From: an uncultured Prevotellamassilia sp. | Lineage (GTDB): Bacteria; Bacteroidota; Bacteroidia; Bacteroidales; Bacteroidaceae | Length of the DNA: 64,000 bases | NCBI GenBank assembly: GCA_934255485.1 | Contig: CAKQOG010000011.1 | Span: 5,072-69,071, forward strand | Direction of reading: 5' to 3' | Shown here: positions 3,399 through 59,004 of the stretch, in pieces | Layout of the letters: each line of letters begins with the position of its first letter | Numbering within the stretch: the stretch's first letter is position 1 | Notes under the pieces: generated by a model | Told to the model about the DNA's origin: nothing | Databases searched by the model: none | Seen by the model: only the letters and a program-made list of their open reading frames with translations | Translations under genes and position numbers: made by a program

Positions 3399-3728
3399 TT
3401 TTAGCTATTATAGTTTTCAATCTGTTAGCAAAAATAGTGTAAGGCGAACACCAAACAAAGCTTACCTTGGTTTTGCATTCGCTTTGCACTATTTTACGGC
3501 AAAATTACGCATTCTTTGTAAAAAAGCCACATTACCATGAATAAAGATGTAATAGTTATCTAACAATGCTACTTAGGGAGGCCTACCGATCCATAACCTA
3601 ATAGTTAGTTATAACCCCTAAAGTGGTAACAAATATTTACTTTTAAAACTTTCAAAATAGAATGAAATCTGTACACTTATTATCATCACACGTTATTTTT
3701 TCATCCTATTTTTTTGTGTTAGAAAACT

Positions 3729-3802
3729 AAGGATACGTATCCTTGTGAACTTAGAATACGCTTGTTAGCATGCAAGGATACGTATGCTTATGGCATAAGG
3801 AT
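3729..3802. repeat. Three copies of a 16-bp perfect palindrome AAGGATACGTATCCTT (3729-3744, 3764-3779 with C>G variant, 3787-3802), each followed by CTTGTGG-like flank
   Basis: Direct reading. The same unit recurs as a 4-copy tandem array at 58639-58744. Confidence 0.9.
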
Positions 3803-4135
3803 ACGTATCCTTGTGGTGTTATAACACGTTTATAAGGCATTAAGCACACAAATCAAGCGCAACAAACAAAGCTAAGTAACTGATTTTCAATACTATTAGC
3901 AAATCTTCTCAAAATTCTCGCAAAATGGCTCAACAGTCTTTTTGTTTCAAAACAACGAAGTTTTGAGCATTATGACAATCAAACTCCAAGAGCATTTTGT
4001 AATAACCATACAAACTTTATCAAGCTACGTCGCTCGTTACTCAATGATTGTTAATAAACCATTTTTTAATCATTTTTTTTTGCCAAATACTTGCATTGTA
4101 TTGATATTCTATCTATCTTTGCACCGTATTCAAAG

Positions 4136-4163: not shown

Positions 4164-4607
4164 ATGGATGCAAACAATGTATTAGATTACTTATACCGAC
4201 ACGACATAAAGCCATCAATGCAGCGCATGGCGGTAATGAGCTACCTAATGGAGCATCGCACGCATCCTACGGCAGACGAGATATACAATGCACTGCACAC
4301 CGAAATGCCTACCTTGTCGAAGACCACGGTGTATAACACCCTCAAGGTTTTAACCGATAAAGGAGCTGCACTGCAACTAACCATCGACGAAAAGAACTGC
4401 TGTTTTGATGCCGATGTTACACCACACGCACATTTCTTGTGTACCCACTGCGGAAGGGTATACGATATGGCACTATCGAACAAGACACTCTGCAAAGACG
4501 CCATCATACCCAAGAATTTTAGGGTAGACGAGGCTCAACTCTACTTTAGAGGTTGCTGTCCCGAATGTGCTAAAGCCGAAAAATCACTCGATAAAACTTG
4601 CTCTTGA
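4164..4607 (+). CDS. Fur-family metalloregulator, PerR-like (peroxide/metal-responsive repressor)
   Basis: HAHFLCTHCGRV (HxH + CxxC) and CCPECAKAE (CxxC) structural-Zn/regulatory-metal motifs; winged-helix N-terminal region. The ORF-track start at 3942 is an AT-rich, low-complexity extension; the Met at 4164 (MDANNVLDYL) is the likely start. Confidence 0.8.
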   Translation: MDANNVLDYLYRHDIKPSMQRMAVMSYLMEHRTHPTADEIYNALHTEMPTLSKTTVYNTLKVLTDKGAALQLTIDEKNCCFDADVTPHAHFLCTHCGRVYDMALSNKTLCKDAIIPKNFRVDEAQLYFRGCCPECAKAEKSLDKTCS

Positions 4608-19006: not shown

Positions 19007-19047
19007 AAGTAAATATAAGTCTCATCTTACCACCGTACACAACTTGG

Positions 19048-19097
19048 TTGCTGTTTGTTGCTGTTTGTTGCTGTTTGTTGCTGTTTGTTGCTGTTTG
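19048..19097. repeat. Tandem repeat of 10-bp unit CTGTTTGTTG (4 full copies + partial)
   Basis: Direct reading at 19051-19097, in the 5' region of the radical SAM gene. Confidence 0.9.
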
Positions 19098-19158: not shown

Positions 19159-19962
19159 ATGAATGGATATCCAGAAAATAAAGAACATAAGGGGATAGTT
19201 TATCCTTCGCCCATATTTGGCCCCATACATAGCCGCAGATTAGGCATATCTTTAGGCATAAACCTTATGCCAGCCGATGGCAAAGTGTGCACATTCGATT
19301 GCGTATATTGCGAGTGTGGTTTCAATAAAGATCATCACCCACATCAGGCACGTCCCACCCGTCAAGAGGTTAGCAAGGCGTTAGAGCTCCAATTGCAAAA
19401 GATGCAAGCAGAGGGCATAACTCCCGATGTATTCACATTTGCTGGTAATGGTGAACCCACTGCCCACCCCGAATTTGCAGCAATCATAGACGACACTGTT
19501 CGCTTGCGCAATCAGTACTTCCCCAACGCTAAGGTAAGCGTGCTGAGCAATAGCACTATGAGCTTGCGTGCCGAAGTACACGATGCACTGATGAAGGTAG
19601 ACAACAACATCCTTAAACTCGATACCGTAGATGCCGATTACATATCTCGAGTAGACCGCCCCACGGGTTGTTATGATGTTGATAAAATCATCAATTCGCT
19701 CATATCATTCAATGGCCATGTCATTGTGCAATCTATGTTTATGAAAGGCTTTAGCGAGGGCAAAAGCGTAGATAATACAAGCGATGCCTATGTGCTACCA
19801 TGGCTCGAAGCCGTAAAACGCATACACCCGCAACAAGTAATGGTATACACCATAGATCGCGAGACCCCCGATCCCGACCTTCGTAAGGCCACTCATCAAG
19901 AGCTCGACCGCATAGCACAACTTGTAAGGGAGGCTGGTATTGACGTTGAAGTAGCTTATTAA
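19159..19962 (+). CDS. Radical SAM domain protein (CxxxCxxC; subfamily unassigned)
   Basis: CTFDCVYCECG cluster, FAGNGEPT glycine-rich SAM motif; 267 aa. Confidence 0.6.
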   Translation: MNGYPENKEHKGIVYPSPIFGPIHSRRLGISLGINLMPADGKVCTFDCVYCECGFNKDHHPHQARPTRQEVSKALELQLQKMQAEGITPDVFTFAGNGEPTAHPEFAAIIDDTVRLRNQYFPNAKVSVLSNSTMSLRAEVHDALMKVDNNILKLDTVDADYISRVDRPTGCYDVDKIINSLISFNGHVIVQSMFMKGFSEGKSVDNTSDAYVLPWLEAVKRIHPQQVMVYTIDRETPDPDLRKATHQELDRIAQLVREAGIDVEVAY

Positions 19963-33988: not shown

Positions 33989-34444
33989 TCTGCCATTACT
34001 ATTTGTTTTACCTTACAAAGATAATTTAATAATTAGCAATACAGACAATACAGGATAATTAAATCAAGTTATCACATTTTATTTAGCTGTGTTATCCCTA
34101 AATGATTGTCTATACTTTAGCCTTATTAGGCAATTCAACTGCAATTAACTAAAAGCAACAGAAAACAGATACTACACACACAATTAACTATTGATTATCA
34201 ATGTATTCACAAATTTACATGTACAAGAATATACCATTTTGTGTATTCTATGTATATAGATTTTACAACAGATATACTGCCTTATACACGCTTTATAAAT
34301 AAAAAAACAAAAACAGAATGGGCGCTTGATTATCGCACATGTTTCATCGCTTTTCTGCAAAATGACATGCTATCGTTATCTACTCAAACTACACTACTTG
34401 TCTTTAAAGAATACGAATAACGTTGATTAAAAACACGCTTTAAG

Positions 34445-34560
34445 TTTGCTCACTCCGACCGCAATGAATGCTCATTCCGACCGCAATGAGTGTTCACTCC
34501 GACCGCAATGAGTGCTCACTTCGACCGCAATGAGTGCTCACTCCGACCGCAATGAGCAAA
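34445..34560. repeat. Five tandem copies of a 22-bp unit (CCGACCGCAATGAGTGCTCACT consensus), flanked by the short inverted repeat TTTGCTCA / TGAGCAAA
   Basis: CCGACC recurs at 34455, 34477, 34499, 34521(TCGACC) and 34543, an exact 22-bp period. It lies within an ORF-free 1.1-kb AT-rich spacer. Confidence 0.9.
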
Positions 34561-35000
34561 CTATAGAGCGTATGCTTACATAACTTATGTACACTTTATT
34601 GTAGAACTTCCCTATAATTATTACGCTACATAACAAGATTTGTAGCGTATGGCATAAAAGTGAGAAACATATTATAAGAGTTATTATTATCCGCTAAAAC
34701 ATTCAAACTCTATTTGACTTTTCGTATCAACTGACAGCAAGTATAATGGATGTGAAGAGACTCTTATTGTAGATAAGGTTCTTTAGAACTGCTATAAACG
34801 ATAGATTAAGATGACATTTATTCCAATGAATAACACCACGGAAAGAGAACATTTTTATCAAACAGTCAATACTAAATAAGTGTACAAACTTACTTATCAT
34901 TTAAACAGGGGCTTGCCAATGCATAAATCAGATAGATAAACTATGTACTTTTAGCGGATAGTAATATATAAGAATGCTTCCTTAGAGGATATAAGCACAT

Positions 35001-35046
35001 AAAAAAGCGCATTCTGAATGCCTTTTACAGCTATCAAAATGCGCTT
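35001..35046 (-). terminator. Rho-independent terminator of nifJ (minus strand)
   Basis: On the minus strand, AAGCGCATT...AATGCGCTT stem followed by TTTTTT (plus-strand A-run at 35001-35006), ~40 bp past the nifJ stop. Confidence 0.55.
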
Positions 35047-35081
35047 GTTAGTTATTTAAATCTCAGAAAAGAGATTTGCTA

Positions 35082-57589: not shown

Positions 57590-58450
57590 ATGAAGTCATT
57601 GTTTGCTTTTATATTAACAATAGGCCTTTTAGCCTCGTGTAGCGAGGAGCCAAGCATATCGCAAGAGCCTCGATTGGTTGTTGAGGGGTGGATAGATAGT
57701 GATGGCTATCCCATGGTGTTTGTTACCACGTCGATGACGGTTGACGGGTCTGACAACCTTTCGTCTGACCTCACAGAACACTTGATCAAATGGGCAAAAG
57801 TAACTGTAAGCGATGGTACAACCAAGGTGGTGCTAACAGGCAAGTACATGAAAAACTACTATCCACCCTATGGGTTTACCACCACCGAGCTAAAGGGTAA
57901 ATGTGGCAACACCTACCATCTAACGGTAGACTATCCGCCCTATCATGCCGAAGCTACCACCACCATTCCGCCCCGCCCCTTGATTGACTCTATAATGGTG
58001 GCCCCACTCTCGCCTTCAGATACGCTATATGGCGTAAAACTACACATTTCTGAGAATGCCATGCACCAAGGTGGCTACAAACTATTTGCCATGCGCAAAC
58101 ACAAAGATAGCTATCCGCTCTCGTGCTACATGGGTACATACCAGTCCTCTAAGCTCAACTTGCCATCTCAACTGCCCGTATACAATGTACACAAGATGGA
58201 TAACAAGGACTTTACGCCCTACTTCTCACCTACTGACACGCTGGTCATTAAAGCAGCTGTGGTAGACGATGATGCGCTGCAATTTTGGAATGCCTTTGAG
58301 AGCAATGTGTCGCTCTCTAAAAGTCCGTTCTTAGCTCCTAACGAAAACATTAAGGGCAACATTACGGGCGCACTTGGCTATTGGTTTGGTTATGGCTGTA
58401 ACTACTACTTGGTTTATCCACCTCAAACACTCCATGCCGAGAATCCCTAA
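57590..58450 (+). CDS. DUF4249-like lipoprotein, the common partner of this TonB-dependent receptor subfamily
   Basis: Lipobox LLASCSEEP; 12-bp gap to the receptor gene. Confidence 0.45.
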   Translation: MKSLFAFILTIGLLASCSEEPSISQEPRLVVEGWIDSDGYPMVFVTTSMTVDGSDNLSSDLTEHLIKWAKVTVSDGTTKVVLTGKYMKNYYPPYGFTTTELKGKCGNTYHLTVDYPPYHAEATTTIPPRPLIDSIMVAPLSPSDTLYGVKLHISENAMHQGGYKLFAMRKHKDSYPLSCYMGTYQSSKLNLPSQLPVYNVHKMDNKDFTPYFSPTDTLVIKAAVVDDDALQFWNAFESNVSLSKSPFLAPNENIKGNITGALGYWFGYGCNYYLVYPPQTLHAENP

Positions 58451-58638
58451 ATTGTTCTATTTTTCCGTTTTTGGCGATTTTTCACCTCTCATATTTGCTT
58501 TGTTTTTGACAACGCAAAATAAATTCTGAACGAGCGCATTTTTGGACAAATCTGGTAAGTCATTGATTATCAATATCTTACAAATTTCACAATCAATAAA
58601 TTCGGAATTGCCACCCCTAAAAAGGCTTTGTTACACCC

Positions 58639-58744
58639 TAAGGATACGTATCCTTAGCTCACAAGGATACGTATGCTTGTGGTATAAGGATACGTATGCT
58701 TATACCCTAAGGATACGTGTTCTTGTGGTAAAAGCATACGCATT
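58639..58744. repeat. Tandem array (period 23-24 bp) of four copies of the AAGGATACGTATCCTT palindrome family plus a degenerate fifth
   Basis: Copies at 58639, 58662, 58685 and 58708, each followed by a variable 7-8-bp spacer with CTTGTGG-like flank; AAAGCATACGCATTT at 58730. Confidence 0.9.
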
Positions 58745-59004
58745 TAAGCAAAAAGTGAGTGCATTTTTACTTTATTCAAGGTTAAAAATGCCTTTTCAAG
58801 CACTTTTTGAGAGCTATTTTACGCTAAAATCTGTACAAAAAATATTGTTCTATTTTTCCTTTCAATGCTTCACTGCCAATAGTATTTTTGCCACAAAATG
58901 TGGCTTAAATATGCCCTATCTAACAACTAAGCGCACATACAGATGTGTTTACTTATAGCATCTGCTTGCGCGCTTTTATGGAAAAAACAAGTGCTTAGGG
59001 CAAA

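What the first reader, a model, noticed from the sequence alone, without database searches (positions are those of the whole stretch)
58639..58744. Tandem array (period 23-24 bp) of the same 16-bp palindrome between convergent gene ends
Four copies (AAGGATACGTATCCTT, two AAGGATACGTATGCTT, AAGGATACGTGTTCTT) run with a strict 23-24-bp period, followed by a degenerate half-copy. The array lies in a 550-bp ORF-poor gap between the 3' ends of the DUF4249 lipoprotein gene and the GNAT gene. The period is about two helical turns, so all palindromes sit on one DNA face, as expected for cooperative protein binding. The architecture superficially recalls a mini-CRISPR, but the units are far too short. 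No ordinary gene-regulation model explains its position between convergent genes. It could be a nucleoid-protein loading site, a recombination/partition-like site, or the template of a structured small RNA.
Basis: seen in the sequence. Interest (0 to 1): 0.6.

Follow-up and report, generated by a model that had tools for sequence, protein, structure and literature searches.

The report
Palindrome array inside a dispersed intergenic module
The array is real, and it is the core of one copy of a many-copy, about 400-bp non-coding module in a small group of Prevotellaceae gut bacteria; its palindromes have stayed almost unchanged while the rest of the module has diverged greatly, which suggests a protein reads them.

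Summary
Four 16-bp palindromes start at 58640, 58663, 58686 and 58709, exactly 23 bp apart, followed by a degenerate fifth. A second array lies at 3729-3835.

The array is not a stand-alone feature of a convergent gene pair. It is the middle of a conserved composite spanning 58451-58862 on the minus strand. The order is leader, about five in-register palindromes, a bipartite palindrome (ATAAC-N4-TTGAT-W-ATCAA-N4-GTTAT), then a long hairpin. At least 36 non-redundant copies were found in Prevotellaceae UBA5903-like metagenome contigs, beside unrelated genes in every orientation.

Leader and tail copies are only about 50% identical. The palindromes are 91.5% identical and the spacers 60%. The period is 23 bp in 148 of 159 intervals, and 21 of 34 arrays have five slots. 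Variants change one half-site without compensation and show no strand bias.

This pattern fits sequence-specific recognition of duplex DNA, probably by a dimeric protein. It fits an RNA hairpin, a CRISPR-like array or a RAYT/REP system less well.

The closest known architecture is the BrickBuilt element of Porphyromonas gingivalis (23-nt minisatellite plus leader and tail). This family has neither its terminal inverted repeats nor its repeat sequence. Function remains inferred.

The parts
58451..58862 (-). Whole composite module (leader, array, tail), read leader-to-tail on the minus strand. It abuts the DUF4249 stop codon at 58450.
   Evidence: Profiles built only from copies in other genomes hit the tail at 58587-58451 (-, E=5e-8) and the leader at 58858-58814 (-, E=1.5e-4).
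58814..58862 (-). Leader module, type B (GGAAAAATAGAACAATATTTTTTGTACAGATTTTAGCGTAAAATAGCTC). It is the best-conserved block in the comparison with the L110 species.
58844..58862 (.). Leader-side copy of the 19-bp direct repeat ATTGTTCTATTTTTCCKTT that bounds the module.
   Evidence: family D3, 95% identity to 58451-58469. The same motif ends the tail in many other copies.
58451..58469 (.). Tail-end copy of the same 19-bp direct repeat, immediately after the DUF4249 stop codon.
58732..58747 (.). Degenerate fifth in-register unit, AAGCATACGCATTTAA.
58709..58724 (.). Unit 4, AAGGATACGTGTTCTT: one consensus half-site and one B-type half-site.
58686..58701 (.). Unit 3, AAGGATACGTATGCTT.
58663..58678 (.). 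Unit 2, AAGGATACGTATGCTT.
   Evidence: Units 2 and 3 (46 bp) are absent in strain contig L002.
58640..58655 (.). Unit 1, the perfect palindrome AAGGATACGTATCCTT.
58617..58632 (.). Degenerate cap palindrome in register (CTAAAAAGGCTTTGTT). It is the counterpart of TTATAAAGGCTTTATAA in other copies and in L110.
58555..58581 (.). Bipartite palindrome of the tail: GTAAG-tc-ATTGATTATCAAT-at-CTTAC.
   Evidence: The family consensus is ATAAC-N4-TTGAT-W-ATCAA-N4-GTTAT.
58494..58518 (.). Tail hairpin: TTTGCTTTGT / TTTTG / ACAACGCAAA. The arms are perfectly complementary in L110.
3623..3974 (+). Second copy of the composite in the window, read on the plus strand. Leader 3623-3686. Units at 3729, 3752 (degenerate), 3774 and 3797. 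Cap TTATAACACGTTTATAA at 3819-3835. Tail 3872-3974 with CTGATTTTCAAT at 3880-3891.
   Evidence: Its length is constant to within 1 bp in 10 strain contigs.

Best explanation
The array is the central block of one copy of a lineage-specific, multi-copy, non-coding intergenic module. Its parts, in order, are:
- a leader (conserved blocks such as TTGACA or TTGTACA, then AAATAGAA);
- about five in-register 18-bp palindromes at a fixed 23-bp spacing, often capped by a second palindrome type (TTATAAAGGCTTTATAA or TATAACACGTTTATAA);
- a bipartite palindrome;
- a long hairpin.

Shown: the module exists in at least 36 non-redundant copies next to unrelated genes. Its parts are always linked and in the same order. 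The copies are old, with leader and tail about 50% identical. The palindromes are nevertheless held at about 92% identity with invariant spacing.

Inferred: the palindromes are phased recognition sites for a sequence-specific, probably dimeric, protein acting on duplex DNA. Because 23 bp is 2.19 turns, five sites make about one full turn around the helix. This would fit a wrapped or spiral nucleoprotein complex of about 115 bp. Unit number changes in steps of 23 or 46 bp by slippage or recombination between units. Spacers can invert between the flanking inverted half-sites.

What the complex does (boundary or insulator, chromosome organisation, or handling by a mobilising enzyme) is not established.
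For: Family and linkage:
- Arrays with the same unit occur in Prevotellaceae bacterium UBA5903 (12 loci) and in 36 metagenome loci.
- 148 of 159 unit-to-unit distances are exactly 23 bp.
- Leader and tail flank the array in a fixed order.
- In 372,650 bp of non-redundant array-bearing loci, all 42 tail hits and all 35 leader hits lie within 450 bp of an array, and none lies elsewhere.
- Profiles built without the window find exactly two modules in the window.

Constraint on sequence:
- Leader and tail copies have mean pairwise identity 0.51 and 0.48. The maxima are 0.79 and 0.67, and no pair exceeds 0.8.
- Units are 0.915 identical and spacers 0.60.
- At the orthologous site in L110 the palindromes are more conserved than the spacers.

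Duplex DNA rather than hairpin:
- Unit classes are AA 60, AB 21, BA 24 and BB 1.
- Variants therefore keep one consensus half-site, double variants are depleted, and there is no strand bias relative to leader-to-tail orientation.
- The bipartite palindrome has conserved inner and outer blocks separated by positions that do not pair.
- Pairing in the tail is no better than shuffled controls: 69.4% against 67.7%, with 35 of 500 shuffles as high.

Grammar and size:
- Terminal units are perfect in 46 of 71 cases and internal units in 14 of 69 (Fisher p = 9e-8).
- 21 of 34 arrays have five in-register palindromes.
- Leader-to-palindrome distances are quantised in steps of about 22 bp, with a mode at 247 bp.

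Turnover of the unit with the architecture kept:
- The orthologous gaps in L112 and L153 carry 23-bp and 22-bp arrays of different 18-bp palindromes.
- L155 has an empty 83-bp gap.

Copy-number change:
- L002 lacks exactly two units.
Against: - No binding protein was identified, and no gene is consistently associated with the arrays.
- Conservation of the palindromes could also come from gene conversion among dispersed copies, or from recognition by a mobilising enzyme rather than a host chromosomal protein.
- The upper limit on array size may be an artefact of short-read assembly. One array is interrupted by Ns (L086).
- The five-slot mode, the helical-geometry argument and any cellular role are inference.
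- The leader has promoter-like blocks and the tail has terminator-like A-run, hairpin and T-run segments, so transcription through the array is not excluded.
- Strain-level SNPs are no rarer inside array 1 than in its flanks.
- The leader and tail profiles were built from those same loci, so only the lack of hits elsewhere is informative.
Confidence: 0.45

Rival explanations
1. A selfish, non-autonomous BrickBuilt-like or MITE-like element carrying an internal minisatellite. It spread in the past by a transposase acting in trans. The palindromes have no host function, and the regularities are by-products of tandem duplication and gene conversion.
For: The architecture matches BrickBuilt of P. 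gingivalis: 23-nt tandem repeats, a leader and tail, about 19 intergenic copies, and copy-number differences between strains (PMC4596501). The module is multi-copy and sits beside unrelated genes in any orientation. An empty orthologous site exists in L155. A copy-number polymorphism is seen.
Against: IS5-type terminal inverted repeats are absent: 3 of 40 weak hits at inconsistent positions. No inverted repeat relates the two ends, and no copy-specific target duplication was found. No two copies have leader or tail more than 80% identical, so there has been no recent spread. Yet the units stay 91.5% identical, the spacing never drifts, and array size peaks at five. BrickBuilt, by contrast, ranges from 1 to 22.8 repeats.
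Confidence: 0.22
2. A family of small-RNA genes. The leader is a promoter, the array is transcribed into a multi-hairpin RNA (for example a protein sponge), and the tail hairpin terminates transcription.
For: The leader has conserved blocks, some matching the Bacteroidetes -7 box TAnnTTTG (TATTTTTG), and the tail has A-run, hairpin and T-run segments. The array folds far better than shuffles, with z = -6.8 and -7.1. One BrickBuilt locus overlapped a putative sRNA in P. gingivalis.
Against: Wobble-compatible (AB) and mismatch-creating (BA) variants are equally frequent relative to leader-to-tail direction, 21 against 24, and compensatory double changes are depleted, 1 observed. RNAalifold finds no consensus structure in the tail, and my imposed structure does not beat shuffles. 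Both strands fold equally well. Rfam has no match at gathering score, and only spurious miRNA-hairpin matches at a relaxed threshold. The -7-like box is not conserved across copies.
Confidence: 0.12
3. A REP/BIME-type cluster maintained by a RAYT (REP-associated Y1 transposase).
For: The units are short extragenic palindromes in clusters, with spacers in either orientation and copy-number variation. A Y1_Tnp gene sits in the orthologous gap of a related species (L112 3928-4596).
Against: That Y1 gene is flanked by a different, GC-rich hairpin (GGCGGGTTGAAAACCCGCC), which is absent from the window. No Y1_Tnp homologue occurs in any array-bearing locus. The palindromes never occur outside the leader-tail module, whereas REPs and REPINs are dispersed with unique flanks. 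No GTAG or CGTC tag is present: flanks are T...A with G/C-rich pentamers.
Confidence: 0.07
4. Structural punctuation of transcription: a bidirectional terminator, or a hairpin stack that protects mRNA 3' ends between convergent genes.
For: In the window it lies between two 3' ends. Hairpin potential is strong on both strands.
Against: The terminator scan found no site in the gap. The units lack T-runs. Only 3 of the 14 arrays checked are between convergent genes, and others lie upstream of divergent genes. Generic hairpins would not need 92% sequence identity or one intact half-site.
Confidence: 0.06

Closest known systems
BrickBuilt MITE of Porphyromonas gingivalis (Klein et al. 2015, PMC4596501)
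   Same: It occurs in a Bacteroidales host. It has an internal tandem repeat with a 23-nt period, and the unit contains a short dyad (TCTCATATGAGA across the unit junction, read). It has non-repetitive conserved 'leader' and 'tail' flanks, tens of strictly intergenic copies, repeat-number differences between strains, a narrow host range and no Rfam match.
   Different: BrickBuilt has IS5-type terminal inverted repeats (GAGACCTTTGCA), which are absent here. Its unit AGACCATAGTATCCTCTCATATG shows only chance-level similarity, 10 of 23 positions. Its repeat number ranges from 1 to 22.8, against a sharp mode of five slots here. Here each unit is a near-perfect 16-18-bp palindrome with a variable spacer, and leader and tail copies are very old. 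BrickBuilt leader and tail sequences could not be compared, because I had no access to the P. gingivalis genome.
REP clusters (BIMEs) of Escherichia coli and REPIN/RAYT systems (own knowledge; PMC3116915 and PMC3733652 listed)
   Same: Both are extragenic imperfect palindromes arranged in clusters with alternating orientation. Cluster size varies between strains. A most-frequent 'master' sequence is surrounded by close variants.
   Different: REPs are dispersed with unique flanks, carry GTAG or CGTC tags, and have a cognate Y1 transposase flanked by the same repeat. None of these was found here.
BOX elements of Streptococcus pneumoniae (own knowledge)
   Same: Both are modular dispersed intergenic repeats: terminal modules (boxA, boxC) enclose a variable number of a tandem internal module (boxB).
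   Different: The BOX internal module is 45 bp and not a simple palindrome. There is no sequence relation, and the host phylum differs.
Tandem palindromic operator or centromere arrays, such as ARG boxes (18-bp palindromes about 21 bp apart), NrdR boxes, F-plasmid sopC and plasmid iterons (own knowledge)
   Same: This is a resemblance in how it may work: several copies of a 16-18-bp palindrome at a fixed centre-to-centre distance of about two helical turns, and tolerance of one weak half-site per unit.
   Different: Those arrays sit beside the genes they control or partition, in one or a few places per replicon. Here there are tens of dispersed copies with no associated gene. No binding protein is known.

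Membership tests
BrickBuilt-type minisatellite MITE | Internal tandem repeat of 23 nt | tested here: met
   Period 23 in 148 of 159 intervals. TRF reports period 23 in the window. BrickBuilt period.
BrickBuilt-type minisatellite MITE | Conserved, non-repetitive leader and tail on the two sides of the repeat | tested here: met
BrickBuilt-type minisatellite MITE | IS5-like terminal inverted repeats (GAGACCTTTGCA / TGCAAAGGTCTC) | tested here: not met
   Only 3 of 40 composites have a hit with up to 2 mismatches, at inconsistent positions. No inverted repeat relates the module ends.
BrickBuilt-type minisatellite MITE | Sequence similarity of the repeat unit | tested here: not met
   The best circular match is 10 of 23 positions. 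Most of the 2000 shuffles reach 10 or more.
BrickBuilt-type minisatellite MITE | Sequence similarity of leader and tail | not testable with these tools
BrickBuilt-type minisatellite MITE | Multiple strictly intergenic copies per genome | tested here: met
   36 non-redundant arrays. All 14 examined in detail are intergenic.
REP/BIME with RAYT | A Y1 (RAYT) transposase gene flanked by the same palindrome | tested here: inconclusive
   There is none in the window or in any array-bearing locus. The one Y1 gene seen (L112) is flanked by a different hairpin. No whole genome was available.
REP/BIME with RAYT | Palindromes dispersed singly or as doublets with unique flanks | tested here: not met
   The palindromes occur only inside the leader-tail module.
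REP/BIME with RAYT | Conserved GTAG or CGTC tag next to the palindrome | tested here: not met
   The flanks are T and A, with a G/C-rich pentamer between units.
CRISPR array | Repeats of about 23-47 bp separated by unique spacers of about 26-72 bp, with cas genes or a leader nearby | tested here: not met
   The repeat is 16-18 bp and the spacers are 5-7 nt, drawn from a small recurring set. Neighbouring genes are housekeeping genes.
Any Rfam RNA family | Match at the family's gathering score | tested here: not met
   0 matches in the whole window. Only sub-threshold miRNA-hairpin matches appear at E up to 10.
Plasmid or phage centromere or iteron array | Adjacent partition (parA/parB) or replication initiator gene | tested here: not met
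   Flanking genes are unrelated housekeeping genes. No arrays occur in viral contigs.

The most novel reading that the evidence does not exclude
These modules could be a so-far undescribed kind of chromosomal nucleoprotein element. Tens of dispersed cassettes per genome would each present about five phased 18-bp palindromes, plus a bipartite palindrome, to a lineage-specific DNA-binding protein. The recognition sequence would co-evolve with that protein, which would explain the different palindromes with the same 22-23-bp architecture at the orthologous site in related species. The assembled complex would cover about 115 bp and mark intergenic DNA, for example as domain boundaries or insulators, or as condensin or nucleoid organising sites.
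Probability: 0.2. Interest if true: 0.8.

Novelty: new variant of a known kind. Interest (0 to 1): 0.55.

Why it matters
Dispersed intergenic repeats in Bacteroidales are barely characterised. BrickBuilt was reported as specific to P. gingivalis and P. gulae.

This family shows that the same layout, a 22-23-bp minisatellite between a leader and a tail, exists in Prevotellaceae. Here its properties are hard to reconcile with a decaying mobile element:
- the copies are very old;
- the spacing is invariant;
- array size is preferentially five units;
- the end units are perfect;
- the palindromes are strongly conserved.

If a cognate protein exists, the arrays give a ready-made, testable binding site and a set of natural half-site mutants. 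The family would then be a tractable entry point into chromosome organisation or transcriptional insulation in an abundant but genetically poorly known gut lineage.

Practically, the arrays are strain-variable markers and a likely cause of contig breaks in short-read assemblies.

Tried and rejected
- Rfam, whole window at gathering score and the gap at E up to 10: nothing real.
- tRNA and tmRNA scan: none.
- Sigma-70 promoter and intrinsic terminator scans of both loci: no more than in shuffles.
- Canonical Bacteroidetes -33/-7 promoter in the leader: checked by eye. The -7-like TATTTTTG is present in only some copies, and there is no conserved -33.
- Y1 transposase association: tblastn against all loci hit only the L112 locus and its two duplicate contigs (L113, L114). 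That gene has its own, different hairpins.
- IS5 terminal repeats and BrickBuilt unit similarity: negative.
- RNA covariation in the tail: RNAalifold gave no structure, and my imposed structure did not beat shuffles.
- Association between half-site type and spacer orientation: not significant, p = 0.23.
- Orthologous presence or absence between UBA5903 loci and the window: no shared genes, so not testable.
- Viral contigs: no arrays.
- The third array in the window (34447-34556) was tested for membership. Only the palindrome core at 34190 matched weakly (E = 0.35), so it is not claimed as a member.
- Literature searches for a described Prevotella equivalent found none.
- A Fur-box reading of TTGATWATCAA was considered. 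Only the 9-bp core TGATAATCA is shared with the classical Fur box (own knowledge), and the motif occurs in tens of copies beside unrelated genes, so I did not pursue it.

Full report
**1. The observation**

The sequence shows AAGGATACGTATCCTT at 58640. One-mismatch copies lie at 58663 and 58686, a two-mismatch copy at 58709, and a degenerate unit at 58732. Each starts exactly 23 bp after the last. Tandem Repeats Finder reports the array with periods 23 and 46.

With up to three mismatches the palindrome occurs seven times in the window, against 0.19 expected. No shuffle reaches seven. The other three copies form a second array at 3729-3812. That array also has a degenerate in-register unit at 3752 and a different palindrome (TTATAACACGTTTATAA) in register at 3819-3835.

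The gap 58451-59004 lies between the 3' ends of a DUF4249 gene and a GNAT gene. The period is exactly 23 bp.

**2. The array is part of a larger, repeated module**

A scan of one genome per species found tandem copies of the palindrome in only one other genome, Prevotellaceae bacterium UBA5903 (12 loci). All other hits were chance singletons. A tandem-unit pattern found 36 more loci in metagenome contigs, mostly from one assembly that overlaps UBA5903.

Over 57 arrays, 148 of 159 unit-to-unit distances are exactly 23 bp. Nine are 45 bp, where an intervening unit is degenerate or of another type.

Aligning the flanks showed the same neighbours in the same order every time.
- On one side is a 'leader'. 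Type A reads GTGAAC-TATTTTTG-ACATTTTGAAC...AAATAGAA-..GAAATGTTAAT. Type B reads GGAAAAATAGAACAATATTTTTTGTACAG...AAAATAG.
- On the other side is a 'tail'. It has a bipartite palindrome with consensus ATAAC-N4-TTGAT-W-ATCAA-N4-GTTAT.
- The tail continues with a long inverted repeat, GCTCATnAATC...GATTnATGAGC, enclosing A-runs, a variable hairpin and T-runs.
- The tail often ends with a second copy of the leader's first motif.

In the window these terminal motifs are the 19-bp direct repeats at 58451-58469 and 58844-58862.

Profiles built only from copies in other genomes find exactly two modules in the 64-kb window. One is at 3623-3974 (+) and one at 58451-58862 (-). In 372,650 bp of non-redundant array-bearing loci, all 42 tail hits and all 35 leader hits are within 450 bp of an array, and none is elsewhere. 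The profiles were built from these loci, so only the absence elsewhere is informative.

Flanking genes are unrelated housekeeping genes, including uvrB, htpG, relA/spoT, cysN and sufC. They occur in convergent, tandem and divergent arrangements. The convergent setting in the window is therefore incidental.

A threonine ammonia-lyase of the window clusters at 90% identity or more with an Alloprevotella sp. protein. The host is thus an Alloprevotella-like member of the Prevotellaceae.

**3. Anatomy and grammar of the array**

The base before each unit is usually T and the base after is usually A. The unit is therefore effectively an 18-bp palindrome followed by a G/C-rich pentamer (GGGTR, GGTGC, GGGGG, or their complements). 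The pentamer occurs in either orientation.

Of 140 units in 36 non-redundant arrays, 60 are the perfect consensus. The main variant changes one half-site from AAGGATAC to AAGAAYAC. Unit classes are AA 60, AB 21, BA 24 and BB 1. Three things follow:
- a unit almost always keeps one consensus half-site;
- compensatory double changes are depleted rather than enriched;
- the variant half is as often on one side as on the other relative to the leader-to-tail direction.

Terminal units are perfect far more often than internal ones: 46 of 71 against 14 of 69, p = 9e-8. This is the reverse of what edge decay of a tandem array would give.

Counting caps, 21 of 34 arrays have five in-register palindromes. 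Distances from leader to array and from array to the bipartite palindrome fall in classes about 22 bp apart. The commonest leader-to-palindrome distance is 246-247 bp, in 8 of 27 copies. The upper size limit may be biased by short-read assembly, since one array is broken by Ns. The scarcity of short arrays is not so biased.

**4. Age and constraint**

Leader and tail copies are very divergent. Mean pairwise identity is 0.51 for leaders and 0.48 for tails. The maxima are 0.79 and 0.67, and no pair exceeds 0.8. Units from different arrays are 0.915 identical and spacers 0.60.

The copies are therefore old, with no sign of recent spread. The palindromes and their spacing are nevertheless held constant. 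This is the strongest single result. It calls for sequence-specific constraint (a reader) or for continual homogenisation.

**5. The same site in relatives**

- Strain contigs of the same species carry the same gap, except L002, which lacks exactly 46 bp (two units).
- Array 1 has constant length, to within 1 bp, in ten strain contigs. Its SNPs are no rarer inside the array than outside.
- In a species whose DUF4249 protein is 86% identical (L110), the module is present with four units. The palindromes are better conserved than the spacers, and the leader is the best-conserved block.
- In a 65%-identical relative (L112), leader and tail are recognisable. The array, however, is a 23-bp repeat of a different 18-bp palindrome, CTTGGTTG-AG-CAACCAAG. 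A Y1 transposase with its own GC-rich hairpins has been inserted next to it.
- In a 58%-identical relative (L153), the gap holds a 22-bp repeat of GTGATACG-CA-CGTATCAC plus a 4-nt spacer.
- In a 64%-identical relative (L155), the GNAT gene is in the other orientation and the gap is 83 bp with no module.

The architecture of an 18-bp palindrome plus a 4-5-nt spacer is therefore kept while the palindrome itself is replaced between lineages.

**6. Mechanism**

Several results argue against an RNA-level or ssDNA-hairpin role:
- variants show no strand bias;
- double changes are depleted, not compensatory;
- RNAalifold finds no consensus structure in the tail;
- my imposed pairing does not beat shuffled controls, 69.4% against 67.7%;
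- both strands fold equally well, z = -6.8 and -7.1;
- the bipartite palindrome has non-pairing positions between its conserved blocks;
- Rfam has no match.

These same features fit recognition of duplex DNA by a dimeric, sequence-specific protein. They are a palindrome with one obligatory strong half-site, invariant centre-to-centre spacing, and indifference to unit orientation.

Because 23 bp is about 2.19 turns (B-DNA at 10.5 bp per turn, established knowledge), successive sites are rotated by about 69 degrees. Five sites make about one full rotation. That would suit a spiral or wrapped complex of about 115 bp, but this step is inference.

Unit gain and loss in 23-bp or 46-bp steps is shown by L002. 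Spacer inversion between the flanking inverted half-sites is inferred from spacers occurring in both orientations. No reader protein, and no cellular role, was identified.

**7. Comparison with known systems**

The closest described element is BrickBuilt of Porphyromonas gingivalis. It has a 23-nt minisatellite between a leader and a tail, 19 intergenic copies, strain-variable repeat number and no Rfam match (PMC4596501).

The present family shares that layout. It fails two defining tests, IS5-type terminal inverted repeats and unit similarity. It also differs in its narrow size distribution, strictly palindromic units and very old copies. It is an architectural relative, not a demonstrated member.

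REP/BIME-RAYT systems share the extragenic palindrome clusters. They fail on flanks, tags and transposase association. CRISPR is excluded by unit and spacer size and by gene context. Tandem operator or centromere arrays (ARG boxes, NrdR boxes, sopC, iterons; own knowledge) are the best analogy for how the array may work, but not for what it is.

**8. Verdict**

The finding is real and turned out to be larger than reported. It is one copy of a lineage-specific composite intergenic repeat family, with unusually strict internal rules. I rate it a new variant of a known kind (modular intergenic repeats with an internal minisatellite) and of moderate interest.

The protein-binding mechanism is my best-supported reading, at about 0.45. 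A functionless BrickBuilt-like or MITE-like relic is the main rival, at about 0.22.

Noticed in passing
window 34447-34556 (context 33989-35081): A different tandem array: TGCTCACTCCGACCGCAATGAG, 22 bp x 5.0 copies, 92% matches. It lies in a 1.1-kb gene-free gap. Each unit reads as an imperfect 18-bp palindrome (GCAATGAG-TG-CTCACTCC) plus the 4-nt spacer GACC, the same layout as the L153 array. ATTGATTATCAAT at 34190 and TTATACACGCTTTATAA at 34282 lie nearby. The tail profile matches only weakly (E = 0.35), so family membership is unproven.
   Followed up: partly
window 19047-19097: A perfect 10-bp tandem repeat, GTTGCTGTTT x 5.1 (100% matches). It lies just upstream of the ORF starting at 19159 and overlaps a weak 103-aa TTG ORF.
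   Followed up: no
L112 3870-4705: A 222-aa Y1 (IS200/IS605-type, PF01797) transposase is inserted in the orthologous DUF4249-GNAT gap of a related species. It is flanked by GGGGCGGTTGAAAACC and GGCGGGTTGAAAACCCGCC hairpins, so it looks like a RAYT with its own REP. The left hairpin appears to interrupt the ATTGTT... motif that follows the stop codon.
   Followed up: partly
L155 3374-3456: In a 64%-identical relative the GNAT gene is on the same strand as DUF4249, with only an 83-bp gap and an ordinary TAnnTTTG promoter. The GNAT gene is therefore inverted in the window's lineage, and the module occupies the resulting gap.
   Followed up: partly
window 58451-58469 and 58844-58862: A 19-bp direct repeat, ATTGTTCTATTTTTCCKTT, bounds the module. 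The first copy starts at the base after the DUF4249 stop codon. The same motif ends the tail and begins the type-B leader in many other copies, so it belongs to the element and is not a copy-specific target duplication.
   Followed up: partly
L086 324-387 (UBA5903 contig DJEH01000030.1): A run of Ns interrupts an array. The same locus is assembled with five units in L148. These arrays seem to break or gap short-read assemblies, so published MAGs probably under-report their length and number.
   Followed up: no
window 4113-4120: An ordinary promoter in this organism fits the Bacteroidetes -7 box TAnnTTTG (TATCTTTG before the Fur-family gene at 4164). It lies outside the module's tail. The Fur-family gene is followed by a rubrerythrin gene.
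   Followed up: no
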